Below, in pieces: positions 1-24,341 of a DNA stretch of 26,097 nucleotides (position 1 is its first letter; every line of letters starts with the position of its first letter). The notes beneath the pieces were generated by a model. It searched no databases. It saw nothing but the letters and a program-made list of their open reading frames with translations, and was not told where the DNA came from. Where the stretch lies: IMG/VR virus record IMGVR_UViG_3300044535_000502; one strand, written 5' to 3'. The stretch comes from a virus. Lineage: Duplodnaviria; Heunggongvirae; Uroviricota; Caudoviricetes. The position numbers and the translations under genes are program-made.

Positions 1-29
1 CATCAGTGGACAAACAGTAAGGATTTATT

Positions 30-947
30 ATGAAGAAAAAATACTATTTTATGGCAGGTTTGCCACGTAGCGGCAGCACAATGCTATCGGCTATCCTAAA
101 CCAAAATCCAAGATTCTACTCTGGTCCTAGTTCGCCGGTGGTTTCTACCATGTTAACTTTGGAACAATCACTGAGCCAAGATGAACTGTTTCTTGCATAT
201 CCAAAGATGGAATTTGGTAAGAATCTAGTTACATCAGTCATTGATCAATACTATGCAGATACAGACAAGCCAGTGGTATTTGAAAAGAATCGCAGTTGGG
301 TAAACAGAATGGATTATATTCAAGGATACTTTGGTATTGAACATCCAAAGATCATCTATCCGGTGCGTGATGTAGCTGAGATTCTAGCATCATTCATCTC
401 AATGATTAAACGCAACCCACACATCGTCAACGACAGGTTAAACTTCATCGACCAATCGCTTGTGCAGCAAGGCATTCCATTGACTGATGAAAATCGTTGC
501 CGCGCTATTGCTGGTCCAGGCATTCTTGGTCAATCGTTTGATGGACTAAAGAAAGCTCTTTCTGAGGGATATAGAACAAGTATTCACTTTGTTGAGTACA
601 AGGATCTTGTAAGTAATCCAAAAGAAACTATGAGACAGATATATAAGTTTCTAGGAGAATCAGAATACAATCATGATTTTAAGAACCTGATAAACCAGCA
701 TCAAGAAGATGATGCTAAAATTTATGGATTCACTGACATGCACGAGGTCCGCAAAGAATTGAAGTCAACTGCTCAAATGCCCGAAGATGTATTACCAAAA
801 GTTATTTTGGATGCAGTTGTTGGTGCGGAGTTTTGGCGAGAACTTGATGATGTGCCATTAACAAACGAAACGGTTGATGATAAGCCAGAAAAGAAGACTA
901 GCTTCTTTGGCGAAGTAATAGACCAAGAAGACACAAGATTTATTTAA
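30..947 (+). CDS. PAPS-dependent sulfotransferase family protein (305 aa)
   Basis: N-terminal 5'-phosphosulfate-binding loop FMAGLPRSGSTMLSAILNQNP; internal EKNRSW; 3'-phosphate-binding motif IIYPVRDVAEILASF; 'VEYKDLVSNPKETMRQIYKFLG' segment typical of the family; AAGGA RBS upstream. Confidence 0.85.
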   Translation: MKKKYYFMAGLPRSGSTMLSAILNQNPRFYSGPSSPVVSTMLTLEQSLSQDELFLAYPKMEFGKNLVTSVIDQYYADTDKPVVFEKNRSWVNRMDYIQGYFGIEHPKIIYPVRDVAEILASFISMIKRNPHIVNDRLNFIDQSLVQQGIPLTDENRCRAIAGPGILGQSFDGLKKALSEGYRTSIHFVEYKDLVSNPKETMRQIYKFLGESEYNHDFKNLINQHQEDDAKIYGFTDMHEVRKELKSTAQMPEDVLPKVILDAVVGAEFWRELDDVPLTNETVDDKPEKKTSFFGEVIDQEDTRFI

Positions 948-959
948 GGAGATTCTATC

Positions 960-1241
960 ATGGAAGAACGAGTAAGAACATTAGACGATATCAAGGGAAC
1001 CATCAAAGCTGCACGGGACAGTGTGTGGGTTATTGGTGATGAGATTGCAAAATTGGCTGCTGGATCACAGGCAAACAATGAAAGAAAAGGCAATATTGAA
1101 CGCAACGTTGCGCATCTGAAAATTGTTGTTTCTGATCAAGCAATTGTTGATTCAGGAGAAGATATCACGGATCTACTAGCAGCTATTACAACAGGCGAAG
1201 CAAAACTAGCCGAAAACATTTGGATAACACAAGGAGAATAA
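960..1241 (+). CDS. Hypothetical protein (93 aa), predicted helical
   Basis: ORF with AGGAG RBS, tightly packed between neighbours, with phage-like codon usage; no catalytic motif recognised. Confidence 0.8.
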   Translation: MEERVRTLDDIKGTIKAARDSVWVIGDEIAKLAAGSQANNERKGNIERNVAHLKIVVSDQAIVDSGEDITDLLAAITTGEAKLAENIWITQGE

Positions 1242-1242
1242 A

Positions 1243-1413
1243 ATGGAAATTACATTGAAACTATCATTAGAACAAGTCAACGGTATCATCTATGCATTGG
1301 GTGAACTACCAGTTAAAACAGGTGCAGCGCAATTGGTCAGCTTGATCCATGAACAAGTTCAACCACAAGTGCCAGAACAGCCAGCAGAACAAACAGAACA
1401 AGCCGCAGAGTAA
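1243..1413 (+). CDS. Small hypothetical protein (56 aa, MEITLKLSLEQVNGIIYALGELPVKTGAAQLVSLIHEQVQPQVPEQPAEQTEQAAE); absent from the ORF track
   Basis: Translated by hand: AGGAG at 1232-1236, ATG at 1243, TAA at 1411-1413. It fills the gap between 1241 and the next RBS. Confidence 0.8.
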   Translation: MEITLKLSLEQVNGIIYALGELPVKTGAAQLVSLIHEQVQPQVPEQPAEQTEQAAE

Positions 1414-1429
1414 TCTAACGGAGTATATT

Positions 1430-2224
1430 ATGCAGAAAATTCTTATTATGGGTCTACCAGGTGCCGGGAAGACTTATCTAGCTCAACACATTTTGGATCA
1501 TTTACAAGCTGATAGAAAACGTGTTGGCTGGTTGAATGCGGATGATGTACGAAAAAAGTTCAACGATTGGGACTTTAGTCATGAGGGTCGTATTCGCCAA
1601 AGTAAACGAATGGCAGAACTTGCTGAGACTCAATATGGTGACATGGATTTTGTAATTTGTGATTTCGTTGCTCCTCTTCAGGAAATGCGAAATAACTTCA
1701 AAGCAGACTGGACAGTATGGGTAGATACCATTGATAAAGGTCGCTTTGAAGACACCAATAAGATTTTCACTCCACCAGAAGTTTACGACTTCAGGATTAC
1801 CGAACAGCATGGTGAAAAATGGGGTGAGTTTATTGCGGCTCATATTCTGGATAATAGACGCAGACCCACATTTGATTGGCAAAAAGAGACTGTTCAGATG
1901 CTAGGAAGATGGCAGCCATGGCACCAAGGTCACAGAGCTTTGTTTGAGAGAGCTATCAGCAAGACTGGCCAGGTTGTCATACAAATCCGAGACTGTCAAG
2001 GCTGGCAAGGATCAAATCCATTTGCCATTGAACAAGTCAAAAGCTATATTAAACGCGATCTTGACACTCTATATCAAGGACAATATGAAATTCAGGTTGT
2101 TCCTAACATCGTGAACATTACCTATGGGCGAGATGTTGGATATAAGATTGAGCAGGAAGTATTTGATGACGCGACACATGCAATAAGTGCTACAAAGATC
2201 AGAAAGTCTATGGGAATCAAGTGA
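1430..2224 (+). CDS. Fusion of an adenylylsulfate (APS) kinase-like P-loop domain and a C-terminal HxGH nucleotidyltransferase domain (264 aa)
   Basis: Walker A GLPGAGKT (1451-1474); LNADDVRK and DFSHEGRIRQ resemble CysC 'LDGDxxR' and 'GFSxxDRxENIRR'. The C-terminal domain has GRWQPWHQGH (1904-1933), NPF and ISATKIR. Start moved from 1349 to ATG 1430 (GGAG RBS at 1420-1423; the upstream extension overlaps the 56-aa gene). Confidence 0.75.
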   Translation: MQKILIMGLPGAGKTYLAQHILDHLQADRKRVGWLNADDVRKKFNDWDFSHEGRIRQSKRMAELAETQYGDMDFVICDFVAPLQEMRNNFKADWTVWVDTIDKGRFEDTNKIFTPPEVYDFRITEQHGEKWGEFIAAHILDNRRRPTFDWQKETVQMLGRWQPWHQGHRALFERAISKTGQVVIQIRDCQGWQGSNPFAIEQVKSYIKRDLDTLYQGQYEIQVVPNIVNITYGRDVGYKIEQEVFDDATHAISATKIRKSMGIK

Positions 2225-2248
2225 TATCCTAGCGGTTGATTTTTGATA

Positions 2249-2256
2249 TATAAGTA
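2249..2256 (+). promoter_or_regulatory. Possible T4-type late promoter variant TATAAGTA upstream of the lipoprotein gene
   Basis: One mismatch to TATAAATA; intergenic, about 25 nt before the ATG at 2282. Confidence 0.4.
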
Positions 2257-2281
2257 CATATACCCTTACCAGGAGCTTAAA

Positions 2282-3001
2282 ATGAAACGATTTTTATCCA
2301 TAGCGGCTTTATTGTCTGTAGCACTTCTTACTGGATGTGCTAGCCAAGATTATAAGATGTACGCAGACGCCCAAAGAGCCATTGCATCAGCAAATGCAAC
2401 CGCAGAAAGTGCAAAATATGCGGCTCTTGCTGAGATTGCAAGAACAGGTGATGCTACAGCTAAGGTAGCGGCTGTTATGAGCATCAACTTTGCTGCCTCA
2501 AACAACACCCGCAATCAACAACAACAAATCTTGCCACCAAAATCTGCTGGTGATATTGCACTGCAATGGACTTCATTGCTGTTGCCTAACTTGACACAGT
2601 TCTATTCAATCAATGCGAACCGTCAAGTTGCTATCACACAAAGCAATAACGCAACTGCATTGGGTATCAAACAGAGTGATAACCAAGTGGCTACAACCAC
2701 TAACACAAACAACACGTTTGCAAACATTGCAGGTGCTGGTCTAACAGCAGTTACTACAACAGCAGGTGCTGGGCTGGCAGCCACAGTTGATGTTGCTAAA
2801 GCTGGTTTAACCGCAACCACAACAGTCAGTGGTCAAGGAAGTGCAGCTTCAGCTAGTATTTCAAAAGATGCGAGTGATTCTATCAAAGCTATTGCCGATG
2901 CCATGGAAAACATTCAGCCTAATGTGACAACCACAAACTCAAACAATACGTCTTATTCATGTCCTGCTGGCCAAACGCTTGTCGCTGGCAGTTGCGTATA
3001 A
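2282..3001 (+). CDS. Predicted lipoprotein (239 aa), Ala/Thr-rich
   Basis: MKRFLSIAALLSVALLTG|C: basic N-terminus, hydrophobic core and lipobox with Cys19 at 2336-2338. AGGAG RBS at 2271-2275 supports ATG 2282 over TTG 2243. Confidence 0.8.
   Translation: MKRFLSIAALLSVALLTGCASQDYKMYADAQRAIASANATAESAKYAALAEIARTGDATAKVAAVMSINFAASNNTRNQQQQILPPKSAGDIALQWTSLLLPNLTQFYSINANRQVAITQSNNATALGIKQSDNQVATTTNTNNTFANIAGAGLTAVTTTAGAGLAATVDVAKAGLTATTTVSGQGSAASASISKDASDSIKAIADAMENIQPNVTTTNSNNTSYSCPAGQTLVAGSCV
2729..2827 (+). repeat. Degenerate 33-nt (11-aa) tandem repeat within the lipoprotein
   Basis: gcaggtgctggt at 2729, gcaggtgctggg at 2762 and gctaaagctggt at 2795, giving AGAGLTAVTTT / AGAGLAATVDV / AKAGLTATTTV. 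Confidence 0.7.
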
Positions 3002-3023
3002 TTTAACTTCAATTGACAATATC

Positions 3024-3046
3024 ACGCCCCTTTAATGGGGCGTTTT
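3024..3046 (+). terminator. Rho-independent terminator after the lipoprotein gene
   Basis: Stem ACGCCCC (3024-3030) / GGGGCGT (3037-3043), 6-nt loop, followed by a T run. Confidence 0.75.
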
Positions 3047-3051
3047 ACCTT

Positions 3052-3059
3052 TATAAATA
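3052..3059 (+). promoter_or_regulatory. T4-type late promoter TATAAATA (gp13)
   Basis: Exact gp55-dependent consensus, 25 nt upstream of the gp13 ATG. Confidence 0.85.
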
Positions 3060-3083
3060 GGTAATAACGATTGGATAAAACAC

Positions 3084-4037
3084 ATGGCAACTCCTAGAAC
3101 AAGATCAGAATTCAAAGAATACTGCTTACGCAGACTTGGACATCCGGTCATTCAAATAAACGTAGATGAAGATCAGCTGGATGATCGTGTTGATGATGCA
3201 TTGGCATTCTACCATGACTATCATTATGATGGTATGGAACAGATGTATTTGAAATATCAAATCACTCAGGAAGATATGGACAGGAGATACATATTCTGTC
3301 CTGATGCAGTCAATTTTGTTACTGGCATTTTACCATTTGACCAGTCAAACTCCTCAGTCAACATGTTTGACTTGAGATACCAACTGAGATTGCATGACCT
3401 TTATGACTTCACATCGGTATCGTATGTTTCATATGAAATAACGATGCAACACATCCGAACATTGAATCTGTTGTTCTCAGGAACACCACAAGTCAGATTC
3501 AATAGGAAGATGAATAGATTGTATCTTGATATTGATTGGACAAGAGATGTTTCTGTTGGAAGCTGGGTCATCGTTGAGTGCTATCGCAGAATAGAACCAG
3601 ATTCCAGAATATCCACAGGCACAGTATCCGTTACTGCCACATCCAACACCGTAATTGGAACAGGCACATCTTTCAATAGTGAGTTGTCTGTCGATGATGA
3701 AATTATCATCAATGGTGAATTCAAGAAAATTGTCTCGATTGCAGGACCAGCATCACTAAACGTGACTCCGCAGTTTGCATCTACAACAACAGGTGCCACA
3801 CTGACACGCCCAGGTTTCTCAGACGTATGGAACGATAGATTCCTGAAGCAATACGCAACAGCAAAGATCAAATATCAGTGGGGAAGCAATCTCAGTAAAT
3901 TCGCAGGTATTCAAATGCCCGGTGGTGTTACACTTGATGGTGTCAGAATAATGCAAGAGGCGGCTGAAGAGATGAAAGAATTAGAAGATGGTTTGATAAG
4001 CACAAACGTACTTCCTGGCGAGATAATGATGGGCTAA
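3084..4037 (+). CDS. gp13: Neck protein gp13 (317 aa)
   Basis: N-terminal 'EFKEYCLRRLGHPVIQINVDEDQLDDRVDDAL' and C-terminal 'WNDRFLKQYATAKIKYQWGSNLSKFAGIQMPGGVTLDG' are typical T4-like gp13; first gene of the neck-terminase-tail cluster. Confidence 0.9.
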   Translation: MATPRTRSEFKEYCLRRLGHPVIQINVDEDQLDDRVDDALAFYHDYHYDGMEQMYLKYQITQEDMDRRYIFCPDAVNFVTGILPFDQSNSSVNMFDLRYQLRLHDLYDFTSVSYVSYEITMQHIRTLNLLFSGTPQVRFNRKMNRLYLDIDWTRDVSVGSWVIVECYRRIEPDSRISTGTVSVTATSNTVIGTGTSFNSELSVDDEIIINGEFKKIVSIAGPASLNVTPQFASTTTGATLTRPGFSDVWNDRFLKQYATAKIKYQWGSNLSKFAGIQMPGGVTLDGVRIMQEAAEEMKELEDGLISTNVLPGEIMMG

Positions 4038-7980: not shown

Positions 7981-8025
7981 GAATAATACGATTCAGTTCT
8001 ATAAAAATAATAAGGAGAACAAAAT

Positions 8026-23575: not shown

Positions 23576-23772
23576 GTATGGAAGGAGATTACACCGTGCT
23601 GAAATCTCTTAGTGAGTATAGCAATGGAGCAAAGTCTGCTCAGATTTTTTTAGTCAATGGAAAACATAAGTATATGGTACTTTATTATGATGCAGATACT
23701 GACTATAATCATGCTGAGTATTTTATGAAATATGAAAAAGCCGAAGGATGCGCTGAAGGATGGACACGATGA
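23572..23772 (+). CDS. Small hypothetical protein (64-66 aa; alternative ATG at 23578)
   Basis: Fills the gap between gp46 and def, with overlapping start/stop codons at both ends. Confidence 0.65.
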   Translation: MSMEGDYTVLKSLSEYSNGAKSAQIFLVNGKHKYMVLYYDADTDYNHAEYFMKYEKAEGCAEGWTR

Positions 23773-24341
23773 ATGACAATGACGTTATAACAATTAATAC
23801 CAATTCACCAACAAAAGTTGTTGAAGAGGTTGTTTCAATTTTGCCCATACTAGCTGAGGGACATCCTAAGCTATCACAGGTCATGCCTGATTTTGATATC
23901 ACTCAAATCATGCAACCAGGCATACAAAAATTTATTCGCCAACTGCAAAAGACACAAGCCGCATATAGTGGTCTTGGTTTGTCTGCGAATCAAGTCGGCA
24001 TCGGCTTTAGGGTGTTCGTGATTGGTGATGGTATCGTGTGTTTCAATCCAAAGATTGTTGCCACGCAAGGTGAAGAGATTCGTAAACCTGAAGGTTGCCT
24101 ATCATTTCCTGGCTTGAATTTAAACGTTCCTAGATATGGTAGTATTGATGTTGAGTACTATGATGAAAAAGCAAACTTAGTTACTACACATTTTGAAGGT
24201 CTGACAGCACAAGTTTACCAGCATGAGCTTGACCATATGAACGGTGTAGTGTATACTCAGCATGTTAAACCTGTAGCACTACAAATGGCAAGAAAGCGCC
24301 AAGCTAAGGTAATCAAGAAACACGTTCGGAGAAACAAATGA
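23769..24341 (+). CDS. def: Peptide deformylase (190 aa)
   Basis: All three PDF motifs are present: GLGLSANQVG, EGCLS and QHELDH. Start 23769 is preferred over 23760 (ATGA overlap; AAGGA at 23756-23760). Confidence 0.93.
   Translation: MNDNDVITINTNSPTKVVEEVVSILPILAEGHPKLSQVMPDFDITQIMQPGIQKFIRQLQKTQAAYSGLGLSANQVGIGFRVFVIGDGIVCFNPKIVATQGEEIRKPEGCLSFPGLNLNVPRYGSIDVEYYDEKANLVTTHFEGLTAQVYQHELDHMNGVVYTQHVKPVALQMARKRQAKVIKKHVRRNK

What the first reader, a model, noticed from the sequence alone, without database searches (positions are those of the whole stretch)
30..2224. Candidate self-sufficient phage sulfation module: sulfotransferase plus a putative PAPS-making enzyme
Seen: a sulfotransferase (GLPRSGST; RDVAEILASF) and, 483 nt after its stop, an APS-kinase-like protein carrying an extra nucleotidyltransferase domain. 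Only two small ORFs lie between them, and no strong terminator was seen. Established: these sulfotransferases need PAPS, which is made by ATP sulfurylase (an HxxH nucleotidyltransferase) and APS kinase. Inference: the phage encodes sulfate activation and transfer in one unit and sulfates a substrate such as a virion glycan or protein, a host surface polymer (receptor masking), or a modified DNA base. The block lies just upstream of the neck genes, which favours a late or virion-related target.
Basis: partly seen in the sequence, partly recalled or inferred. Interest (0 to 1): 0.85.

Follow-up and report, generated by a model that had tools for sequence, protein, structure and literature searches.

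The report
Phage sulfation module, mini PAPS synthase
A T4-like phage carries, in one late operon beside its tail-fibre, sugar-transferase and neck genes, a sulfotransferase and a 264-residue two-domain enzyme that probably makes the sulfate donor PAPS, using a tiny, so far uncharacterised stand-in for ATP sulfurylase that ocean bacteria lacking the normal enzyme also carry.

Summary
A Sulfotransfer_3/1 gene lies at 30-947. Two small conserved ORFs follow, and 483 nt after the sulfotransferase (ST) stop comes a fusion gene at 1430-2224, here called KNT. All four genes have their own Shine-Dalgarno sites, and no convincing terminator appears before 3024.

The N half of KNT (K) is an APS kinase with a shortened lid: the 50 best PDB fold matches are all APS kinases. 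The C half (NT) is a 115-residue HxGH nucleotidyltransferase. It is closest to archaeal NMNAT and is not a member of the ATP-sulfurylase family PF01747.

Comparative evidence supports PAPS synthesis:
- The same NT domain is fused, in reverse order, to a canonical CysC in marine bacteria.
- SAR86 chromosomes carry ST-K-NT operons.
- Among 121 SAR86-order genomes, NT and ST co-occur (51 both, 3 NT only, 10 ST only, 57 neither), while Sat was found in 1 and CysD in 2.
- 31 to 47 of 80 related phage loci have an ST within 8 kb of KNT.

ATP-sulfurylase activity of NT is inferred, not shown, and the acceptor is unknown. A near-identical relative places the module after tail-fibre and glycosyltransferase genes.

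This scan reached the same reading earlier on other DNA. I found no paper describing it.

The parts
30..947 (+). Sulfotransferase (ST), 305 aa, PAPS-dependent type
   Evidence: Sulfotransfer_3 61 bits and Sulfotransfer_1 53 bits, both above their cut-offs. phrog_27463 E 7e-68. Family-invariant PRSGST (5'-phosphosulfate-binding) and R113...S121 (3'-phosphate-binding) motifs. Closest solved relatives by profile are protein-tyrosine sulfotransferases, E 2.4e-13, and the CurM ST.
960..1241 (+). Conserved small ORF (93 aa), function unknown
   Evidence: AAGGAG 8 nt upstream. Homologues at 59-69% identity in the same position in L084-L086, and present in L156. No Pfam or PHROG match.
1243..1413 (+). 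Conserved small ORF (56 aa) directly upstream of KNT, function unknown
   Evidence: AAGGAG upstream. Cluster C64 lies directly or one gene upstream of KNT in L009, L010, L018, L084 and L085. No family match.
1430..1849 (+). K domain of KNT: APS-kinase-like P-loop kinase with a shortened lid
   Evidence: PF01583 E 4e-12, profile positions 5-94 of 152 only. TIGR00455 35.5 bits against a cut-off of 138.7. Sequence hits in the PDB are all APS kinases. Model pLDDT 95, and the Foldseek top 50 are all APS kinases. Family-conserved K14, D38, R41, F49, R54, Q57 and R87.
1865..2224 (+). NT domain of KNT: minimal HxGH nucleotidyltransferase, candidate ATP sulfurylase
   Evidence: Invariant GRxQPxHxGH, YGRDVGY and ISATxIR across both fusion orders. 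Profile against the PDB: archaeal NMNAT E 2.4e-12, over the first 80 residues only. VIA Z: NMNAT 10.4, PPAT 10.3, Thermus ATP sulfurylase 8.8. Fused to a canonical CysC in the P0216 family.
2282..3001 (+). Lipoprotein-like gene (lipobox LLTGC), last gene of the unit
   Evidence: ORF and signal sequence MKRFLSIAALLSVALLTGC. A 238-aa gene is called at the same place in L156. No family match.
3024..3043 (+). Terminator-like hairpin closing the ST-to-lipoprotein unit
   Evidence: 7-bp stem with 6 GC pairs, followed by a T-rich tail. It is the only strong + strand site in 1-3200.

Best explanation
The window holds a late-operon sulfation module of a T4-like phage. KNT (1430-2224) would act as a compact PAPS synthase. 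In this reading its C-terminal 115-residue HxGH nucleotidyltransferase adenylylates sulfate (ATP + sulfate gives APS + PPi). Its N-terminal APS kinase, which has a shortened lid, then phosphorylates the 3'-OH of APS to give PAPS. The sulfotransferase (30-947) would pass the sulfate to an acceptor, most likely a glycan or protein made or assembled late, such as a virion fibre or a host envelope polymer.

Shown here: the domain identities, gene order, conservation, fusions and co-occurrence. Inferred: both catalytic activities of KNT, above all the ATP-sulfurylase step, and the acceptor.
For: (1) ST is a bona fide Sulfotransfer_3/1 member with both PAPS-binding motifs.
(2) K domain: sequence and fold matches are exclusively APS kinases. 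The best-conserved positions of the family are D38, R41, F49 and R54. In the alignments these fall on the DGDxxR and GFSxxDR motifs of solved APS kinases.
(3) Rosetta-stone fusion: the same NT domain (42-48% identical, same invariant motifs) is fused in the reverse order to a full canonical CysC in the P0216 family. TIGR00455 scores 233.6 bits against a cut-off of 138.7, and PF01583 scores 212 bits. The family has 310 clusters and occurs in OCS116 and PS1 marine bacteria.
(4) In SAR86 chromosomes, on contigs up to 0.9-1.2 Mb, K and NT are separate adjacent genes. In at least 22 genomes an ST sits within 1.5 kb upstream on the same strand, the same order as in the window.
(5) Phyletic pattern in 121 SAR86-order genomes: NT and ST 51, NT only 3, ST only 10, neither 57 (Fisher p 4e-20, not corrected for phylogeny). 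Sat was found in 1 of 121 and CysD in 2 of 121, both of the latter NT-negative.
(6) Five further genomes with NT-CysC or K-NT (OCS116, Marinimicrobia, MGIII) gave no Sat and no CysD. Four have STs, two of them on the same contig 7-15 kb away.
(7) Phages: 31 of 80 KNT loci have a confirmed ST within 8 kb, 14 of them directly adjacent, from at least two ST lineages (window type and a 589-aa type) placed upstream or downstream. The count rises to 47 of 80 with three probable ST families.
(8) The NT domain has the motif order RxxPxHxxH, then GRD, then (I/L)S(G/A)TxxR, the same order as in real Sat sequences. Against NMNAT it has about 25 fewer residues in the second half, which would fit a very small second substrate.
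(9) All genes from 30 to 3001 are tightly packed on one strand with no strong terminator before 3024.
Against: There is no biochemical evidence for any member of the KNT or NT family.

NT gives no PF01747 match. By sequence it is closest to NMNAT, and hhalign aligns only the HxxH stretch with Sat (41% probability). Fold scores do not separate NMNAT, PPAT and ATP sulfurylase.

K is far below the curated CysC cut-offs and lacks most of the lid.

Three complete jumbo-phage genomes with KNT have no Sulfotransfer_3 match, and 33 of 80 loci have no detected ST within 8 kb. In many phages KNT instead sits among genes that look like 7-deazaguanine genes, or next to an RfaE-II-like transferase. In Xylella phage Sano its neighbour is a NADAR-domain gene.

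Many of the cellular genomes are incomplete MAGs or SAGs, and the SAR86 association is not corrected for shared ancestry.
Confidence: 0.6

Rival explanations
1. Only the kinase half serves sulfation. K phosphorylates APS supplied by the host's own ATP sulfurylase. The NT domain does something else, for example a regulatory nucleotide-binding role, or adenylylation of an unrelated small phosphate compound.
For: NT is not a Sat-family member and is closest to NMNAT. Fold scores do not discriminate. Canonical CysC alone is a commonly reported viral auxiliary gene (papers listed).
Against: NT stays coupled to APS kinases in both fusion orders and as an adjacent gene. In SAR86 there is no host Sat or CysDN to supply APS: 1 and 2 of 121 genomes respectively. 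The HxGH, ISxTxxR and two extra arginines of NT are invariant, as expected of an active enzyme.
Confidence: 0.17
2. KNT is a NadR-like NAD salvage enzyme, a ribosylnicotinamide kinase plus NMN adenylyltransferase. In that case it would be unrelated to the sulfotransferase and might restore NAD+ during infection.
For: The best sequence and fold matches of NT are NMNAT, NadM and NadR. A NADAR-domain gene precedes KNT in Xylella phages Sano and Bacata.
Against: The K domain matches APS kinases only; the window's K gives no AAA_28/NadR-kinase hit. The same NT is fused to an equivalog-level CysC. NT scores 25 bits against the 181-bit archaeal NMNAT cut-off, and against NMNAT it has about 25 fewer residues in the second half. 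There is strong ST linkage in phages and SAR86.
Confidence: 0.07
3. KNT activates a sugar or polyol phosphate (a kinase plus a nucleotidyltransferase, as in HldE, or CDP-glycerol synthesis) for the neighbouring glycosyltransferases. The ST would then draw on host PAPS.
For: Glycosyltransferase, heptose-pathway-like and UDP-galactopyranose mutase genes surround KNT in many phage loci. An RfaE-II-like transferase sits directly upstream of KNT in 26 of 84 loci.
Against: The K fold and motifs are those of APS kinase, not of pfkB or GHMP sugar kinases. There is a fusion to a canonical CysC. The minimal NT lacks any obvious sugar-binding subdomain. The SAR86 operon holds ST, K and NT, and NT tracks ST across genomes.
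Confidence: 0.08
4. KNT is a CoA-synthase-like enzyme: a phosphopantetheine adenylyltransferase plus a 3'-kinase acting on dephospho-CoA.
For: PPAT ties with NMNAT in fold score (Z 10.3). Some JGI records name homologues PPAT. The chemistry is formally parallel: adenylylation, then 3'-phosphorylation of the adenosine.
Against: K matches APS kinases, with no dephospho-CoA kinase among the 50 best fold matches. The gene is present in only 54 of 121 SAR86-order genomes and tracks ST, which does not fit an essential CoA pathway.
Confidence: 0.03

Closest known systems
Bifunctional PAPS synthases (animal PAPSS1/2, with APS kinase N-terminal and ATP sulfurylase C-terminal; Aquifex aeolicus Sat-CysC, PDB 2gks)
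   Same: Two domains in one chain, with the kinase at the N terminus as in PAPSS. The kinase half matches these proteins' APS kinase domains in sequence and fold. The proposed chemistry is the same: sulfate to APS to PAPS.
   Different: The second domain has about 115 residues against roughly 200 for the Sat catalytic domain, which in those enzymes also comes with an N-terminal beta-barrel domain (from general knowledge). It gives no PF01747 match and is related to NMNAT instead. The kinase lid is shortened. The whole protein is 264 aa, against 546 for 2gks and about 620 for PAPSS.
APS kinase CysC (PF01583, TIGR00455)
   Same: P-loop, the D..R motif, the F/R motif, the FxxP..R motif and the overall fold. 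The top 50 PDB fold matches are all APS kinases.
   Different: Only profile positions 5-94 of 152 match. The score is 35.5 bits against the 138.7-bit equivalog cut-off. The lid segment between the fourth strand and the FTGID-like motif is much shorter.
Archaeal-type NMN adenylyltransferase (MJ0541, PDB 1f9a; NadM, PDB 2qjt)
   Same: The GRFQPFHxGH motif, the NPF motif, the first three strand-helix units and the closing SxTxIR motif. Profile E 2.4e-12 and VIA Z 10.4.
   Different: Scores are far below the family cut-offs (25 against 181 bits). About 25 fewer residues lie between the PNI strand and the GY motif. It has the family-specific invariant arginines of the VR and YGRDVGY motifs. It is always coupled to an APS kinase.
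Homo-oligomeric ATP sulfurylase Sat/MET3 (PF01747)
   Same: The same nucleotidyltransferase superfamily fold (Thermus Sat Z 8.8 over 116 of 119 residues). The same order of three motifs: PxHxxH, GRD, (I/L)SxTxxR. Genomic coupling to APS kinase.
   Different: No significant sequence match beyond the HxxH stretch. About half the size. The spacing between motifs differs: 68 and 19 residues here, against about 91 and 62 in Sat.

Membership tests
PAPS-dependent sulfotransferase (Sulfotransfer_1/3 clan) | Profile match above the curated cut-off | tested here: met
   PF13469 61.2 bits (cut-off 27) and PF00685 52.8 bits (cut-off 22).
PAPS-dependent sulfotransferase (Sulfotransfer_1/3 clan) | 5'-phosphosulfate-binding loop and 3'-phosphate-binding R...S motif | tested here: met
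   PRSGST is invariant, and R113 and S121 are invariant, in 12 family members. The role of these motifs comes from general knowledge of the family.
PAPS-dependent sulfotransferase (Sulfotransfer_1/3 clan) | Sulfate transfer from PAPS to an acceptor | not testable with these tools
   Needs an enzyme assay. The acceptor is unknown.
APS kinase CysC (PF01583 / TIGR00455) | Full-length match above the equivalog cut-off | tested here: not met
   TIGR00455 35.5 bits against 138.7. PF01583 46.9 bits is above the Pfam cut-off but covers profile positions 5-94 of 152 only.
APS kinase CysC (PF01583 / TIGR00455) | APS kinase fold, with the P-loop and the D..R and F..R substrate motifs | tested here: met
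   The Foldseek top 50 are all APS kinases, TM by target 0.56-0.76. K14, D38, R41, F49 and R54 are conserved in at least 90% of 47 homologues and align with LDGDxxR and GFSxxDR of solved APS kinases.
APS kinase CysC (PF01583 / TIGR00455) | Phosphorylation of APS at the 3'-OH | not testable with these tools
   Needs an enzyme assay.
ATP sulfurylase Sat (PF01747) | Profile match to the catalytic domain | tested here: not met
   No PF01747 match in the protein or in the contig. hhalign against 10 Sat sequences aligns 28 columns around HxxH only, at 41% probability.
ATP sulfurylase Sat (PF01747) | HxxH, GRDHAG and SGTxxR motifs, in that order | tested here: inconclusive
   HQGH, YGRDVGY and ISATKIR are present in the same order but with different spacing. 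The motifs were compared by eye with Sat sequences.
ATP sulfurylase Sat (PF01747) | Formation of APS from ATP and sulfate | not testable with these tools
   Inferred only from fusions, operons and phyletic pattern.
NMN adenylyltransferase, archaeal/NadM type (TIGR01527) | Full-length match above the equivalog cut-off | tested here: not met
   TIGR01527 25.2 bits against 181.2. The match covers the first roughly 70 residues of the domain only.
HxGH nucleotidyltransferase superfamily (CTP_transf_like) | Rossmann-like fold with an N-terminal HxGH and a C-terminal SxTxxR | tested here: met
   Model pLDDT 93.7. VIA Z 8-10.4 to NMNAT, PPAT, NadR, Sat and cytidylyltransferases. The motifs are invariant. 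The Pfam score of the window's protein itself is just below the cut-off (19 against 21).

The most novel reading that the evidence does not exclude
The 115-residue NT domain would be a third, previously unrecognised class of ATP sulfurylase. It would be derived from NMNAT-type nucleotidyltransferases and would be the sole route to APS and PAPS in SAR86, OCS116 and some SAR11, CPR and archaeal lineages that lack Sat and CysDN. Phages would have captured it, fused to a lid-shortened APS kinase, to sulfate glycans or proteins on their own tail fibres. That would be a virion modification not described for any phage.
Probability: 0.3. Interest if true: 0.88.

Novelty: new variant of a known kind. 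Interest (0 to 1): 0.72.

Why it matters
If KNT makes PAPS, three things follow.

- **A new enzyme class.** Sulfate activation would have a third enzyme solution, beside Sat and CysDN, that is only about 115 residues long.
- **A gap closed in marine bacteria.** Abundant streamlined marine bacteria encode sulfotransferases but no known ATP sulfurylase. In the 121 SAR86-order genomes searched here, Sat was found in 1 and CysD in 2. KNT would explain how they obtain PAPS.
- **Self-sufficient phage sulfation.** Many uncultured phages would be able to sulfate a target without relying on the host's sulfate-activation enzymes. More than 8,000 90%-identity clusters of close KNT homologues were retrieved. 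Sulfated virion or host-surface structures could affect adsorption, receptor masking or defence.

A 264-residue one-chain PAPS synthase would also be a handy tool for enzymatic sulfation.

Tried and rejected
- **Nucleotide search.** A megablast of 1-3100 against GenBank phages found nothing.
- **hhalign of NT against Sat.** It aligned only the HxxH stretch, so it cannot settle homology of the GRD motif.
- **Fold searches of NT.** They cannot tell NMNAT, PPAT and Sat apart; the Z scores lie within 1.6 of each other.
- **Odd-length KNT homologues.** Scanning them for informative fusions gave the useful NT-CysC case. It also gave uninformative ones: DUF4118+KNT, and the kinase joined to PF00483 NTP_transferase.
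- **Candidate ST families.** hhalign did not support clusters C23 and C59 as STs. Language-model look-alikes did, so I count them only as probable.
- **Xylella phage Sano gp33.** It looks ST-like by motif and by a sub-threshold Sulfotransfer_4 hit (E 4e-4), but hhalign was not significant.
- **Rfam scan of 1-3200.** No match.
- **Literature searches.** Searches on phage sulfotransferase with APS kinase, SAR86 sulfotransferase, novel ATP sulfurylase, and SAR11 with ATP sulfurylase found no description of this family.
- **Upstream of the ST.** The window and its contig end there, so upstream context came only from the near-identical contig L156.
Full report
**What is in the window**

The window is a fragment of an uncultured T4-like myovirus; it matches an IMG/VR record of 33.5 kb, about 19% complete. 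All genes discussed lie on the + strand.

| Coordinates | Feature |
|---|---|
| 30-947 | Sulfotransferase (ST), 305 aa |
| 960-1241 | Small ORF, 93 aa |
| 1243-1413 | Small ORF, 56 aa |
| 1430-2224 | Two-domain gene, here called KNT |
| 2282-3001 | Lipoprotein-like gene |
| 3024-3043 | Terminator-like hairpin |
| 3084 onward | gp13, gp14, gp15, small and large terminase, sheath, tube, portal, prohead protease, scaffold, gp23, UvsY, UvsW, gp47/46-like nuclease, peptide deformylase, TET-associated glycosyltransferase |

The ATG at 1430 lies 483 nt after the ST stop. It is the start used by all homologues and by the gene caller on a near-identical contig. orf93, orf56 and KNT each have an AAGGAG or GGAG site at the right distance. 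No convincing terminator lies between ST and KNT.

**The sulfotransferase**

It passes both Pfam sulfotransferase models. Across 12 relatives it keeps the PRSGST loop and the R113...S121 motif invariant. By profile, its nearest solved relatives are protein-tyrosine sulfotransferases (E 2.4e-13) and the CurM sulfotransferase. That does not identify the acceptor. The family has about 2,000 clusters at 90% identity in metagenomes.

**The kinase half of KNT**

- Pfam, NCBIfam and PDB sequence searches hit APS kinases only, and only over the first 90 residues. Scores are far below the curated CysC cut-offs.
- A 47-sequence alignment gave a model with mean pLDDT 95.
- The 50 best Foldseek matches in the PDB are all APS kinases.
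- The most conserved positions are K14, D38, R41, F49, R54, Q57 and R87. In the pairwise alignments with solved APS kinases they fall on the P-loop, the DGDxxR motif, the GFSxxDR motif and the SPxxxxR motif.
- From memory of the APS kinase structures, those arginines and the phenylalanine hold APS. I did not test this here.
- The segment that forms the mobile lid in CysC is much shorter.

I therefore call this domain an APS kinase with a shortened lid, not a canonical family member.

**The nucleotidyltransferase half of KNT**

- This 115-residue domain keeps GRxQPxHxGH, an invariant arginine after the second strand, NP, PNI, YGRDVGY and ISATxIR.
- By sequence it is nearest to archaeal-type NMNAT (profile E 2.4e-12), but only over its first 80 residues. 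Between the PNI strand and the GY motif the NMNAT chain has about 34 residues where this domain has 9.
- The domain model (pLDDT 93.7) scores Z 10.4 with NMNAT, 10.3 with PPAT and 8.8 with Thermus ATP sulfurylase over 116 of 119 residues. The fold confirms the superfamily and nothing more.
- There is no PF01747 match. hhalign against ten real Sat sequences aligns only the HxxH stretch.
- Those Sat sequences carry QTRNPMHRxH, GRDHAG and LSGTxxR in the same order as the three motifs here. That is a resemblance, not a demonstrated homology.

**Why I still read it as sulfate activation**

1. *Fusion to a canonical APS kinase.* An exhaustive search found proteins in which the same NT domain comes first and is followed by a full canonical APS kinase. 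The NT domains are 42-48% identical with the same invariant residues. P0216 scores 233.6 bits on TIGR00455 (cut-off 138.7) and 212 bits on PF01583. This family has 310 clusters and lies in OCS116 and PS1-clade marine bacteria, several with sulfotransferases 7-15 kb away.

2. *Cellular homologues in the window's order.* Homologues in K-NT order, 50-60% identical to the window's protein, occur in cellular genomes: SAR86 on contigs up to 0.9 Mb, Woeseiaceae, Paceibacterota and Saccharibacteria. Some Pelagibacteraceae loci also carry both halves, while others match the NT domain alone. In SAR86 the two halves are separate adjacent genes.

3. *Phyletic pattern in SAR86.* I searched 121 genomes of the SAR86 order.
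   - The NT gene is present in 54 and Sulfotransfer_3 in 61.
   - Both are present in 51, NT alone in 3, ST alone in 10 and neither in 57. Fisher p is 4e-20, not corrected for shared ancestry.
   - In at least 22 genomes an ST lies within 1.5 kb upstream on the same strand, the window's order.
   - Canonical Sat was found in 1 of the 121 and CysD in 2, both of the latter NT-negative.
   - So sulfotransferase-bearing SAR86 genomes almost never show a known ATP sulfurylase, but almost always carry K and NT.

4. *Related phage loci.* Among the 80 best IMG/VR loci with KNT:
   - 31 have a confirmed ST within 8 kb, 14 of them directly adjacent. They come from at least two lineages and lie upstream or downstream.
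   - Three further neighbour families are probable STs: one by hhalign at 88% and two by language-model look-alikes. They raise the count to 47 of 80.

**What speaks against it**

- Nothing here is biochemical.
- Three complete jumbo-phage genomes with KNT have no Sulfotransfer_3 match, although one has a probable Stf0-like ST next to KNT.
- 33 of 80 loci show no ST within 8 kb.
- In many phages KNT sits among genes whose N-termini look like FolE, QueD and QueE, or directly after an RfaE-domain-II-like transferase. The Que-type names were not HMM-tested.
- In Xylella phages its neighbour is a NADAR-domain gene.
- KNT may therefore also serve uses of PAPS other than a phage ST, such as host sulfur assimilation. 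Alternatively the NT domain may have a different substrate.
- Many cellular genomes used are incomplete.

**Context and acceptor**

The window starts at the ST. A contig with a 98%-identical ST and the same gene order shows what lies upstream. In order, it has a 1,012-aa protein with a Peptidase_S74 tail-fibre chaperone domain, three further proteins including one of 1,484 aa, and three glycosyltransferase-like genes. Of those three, one has a GT2 match and one shows a methyltransferase domain in a relative. Then come ST, orf93, orf56, KNT, the lipoprotein and gp13.

The module is thus embedded in the late structural region next to fibre and sugar-transfer genes. That fits a sulfated glycan on a virion fibre or on the host envelope, but it proves neither. 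A DNA-base target is not excluded; the phage also has a TET-associated glycosyltransferase 22 kb away.

**Novelty**

I found no paper describing this fusion, a minimal NMNAT-like ATP sulfurylase, or phage sulfation of this kind. This scan has reached the same reading at least eight times before on other DNA. Those notes are unchecked AI notes and are not independent evidence.

I file the finding as a new variant of a known kind: a PAPS synthase whose sulfurylase half is replaced by a different, much smaller nucleotidyltransferase.

**Verdict**

- My confidence is about 0.6 that KNT makes PAPS with NT as the sulfurylase, about 0.75 that K acts on APS, and about 0.9 that the ST is PAPS-dependent.

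Noticed in passing
window:2282-3001 and 3024-3043: A lipoprotein-like gene (signal peptide with lipobox LLTGC; Ala/Thr/Asn-rich; no family match) is the last gene of the ST-KNT unit. The only strong terminator-like hairpin of the region follows it. The gene is conserved at the same place in the near-identical contig L156.
   Followed up: partly
window:20341-20802: A stand-alone RfaE-domain-II-like adenylyl/cytidylyltransferase (CTP_transf_like E 1e-11; TIGR02199 81 bits, below its cut-off). It is 61% identical to a gene that sits directly upstream of KNT in 26 of 84 other phage loci. This suggests a recurrent link between the two genes whose meaning is unknown.
   Followed up: partly
window:24685-25602 and 23760-24341: A TET-associated glycosyltransferase (PF20691, E 1.6e-45) hints at glycosylated hydroxymethyl-cytosine DNA. 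No TET gene was seen in the part of the window I scanned. A peptide deformylase gene lies just upstream.
   Followed up: no
L004, L007, L008, L026, L042 and similar loci, around position 8000: In many uncultured phages, including complete genomes of 343-525 kb, KNT lies among genes whose N-termini look like GTP cyclohydrolase I, QueD and QueE (7-deazaguanine synthesis). A probable Stf0-like sulfotransferase is sometimes inserted right after KNT. The Que-type names were not HMM-tested.
   Followed up: partly
L001:4963-6732 (Xylella phage Sano gp33-gp35): In cultured Xylella, Xanthomonas and Stenotrophomonas siphophages a KNT homologue (36-39% identical) follows a NADAR-domain gene. Before that lies a 195-aa protein with sulfotransferase-like motifs (LPRSRS, HRPAREVAHS; Sulfotransfer_4 E 4e-4, below its cut-off). 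These phages could serve as experimental systems.
   Followed up: partly
L069, L070, L073, L076: upstream of position 8000: Tandem arrays of six or seven RCC1-repeat proteins lie directly upstream of KNT in one group of phage contigs (PF00415 E 6e-74 for one representative).
   Followed up: no
L004-L083 against window:1430-5952: KNT is 83-87% identical between phages whose neck proteins gp13, gp14 and gp15 are only 34-58% identical. KNT is therefore either far more constrained than the structural genes or exchanged between phages.
   Followed up: no
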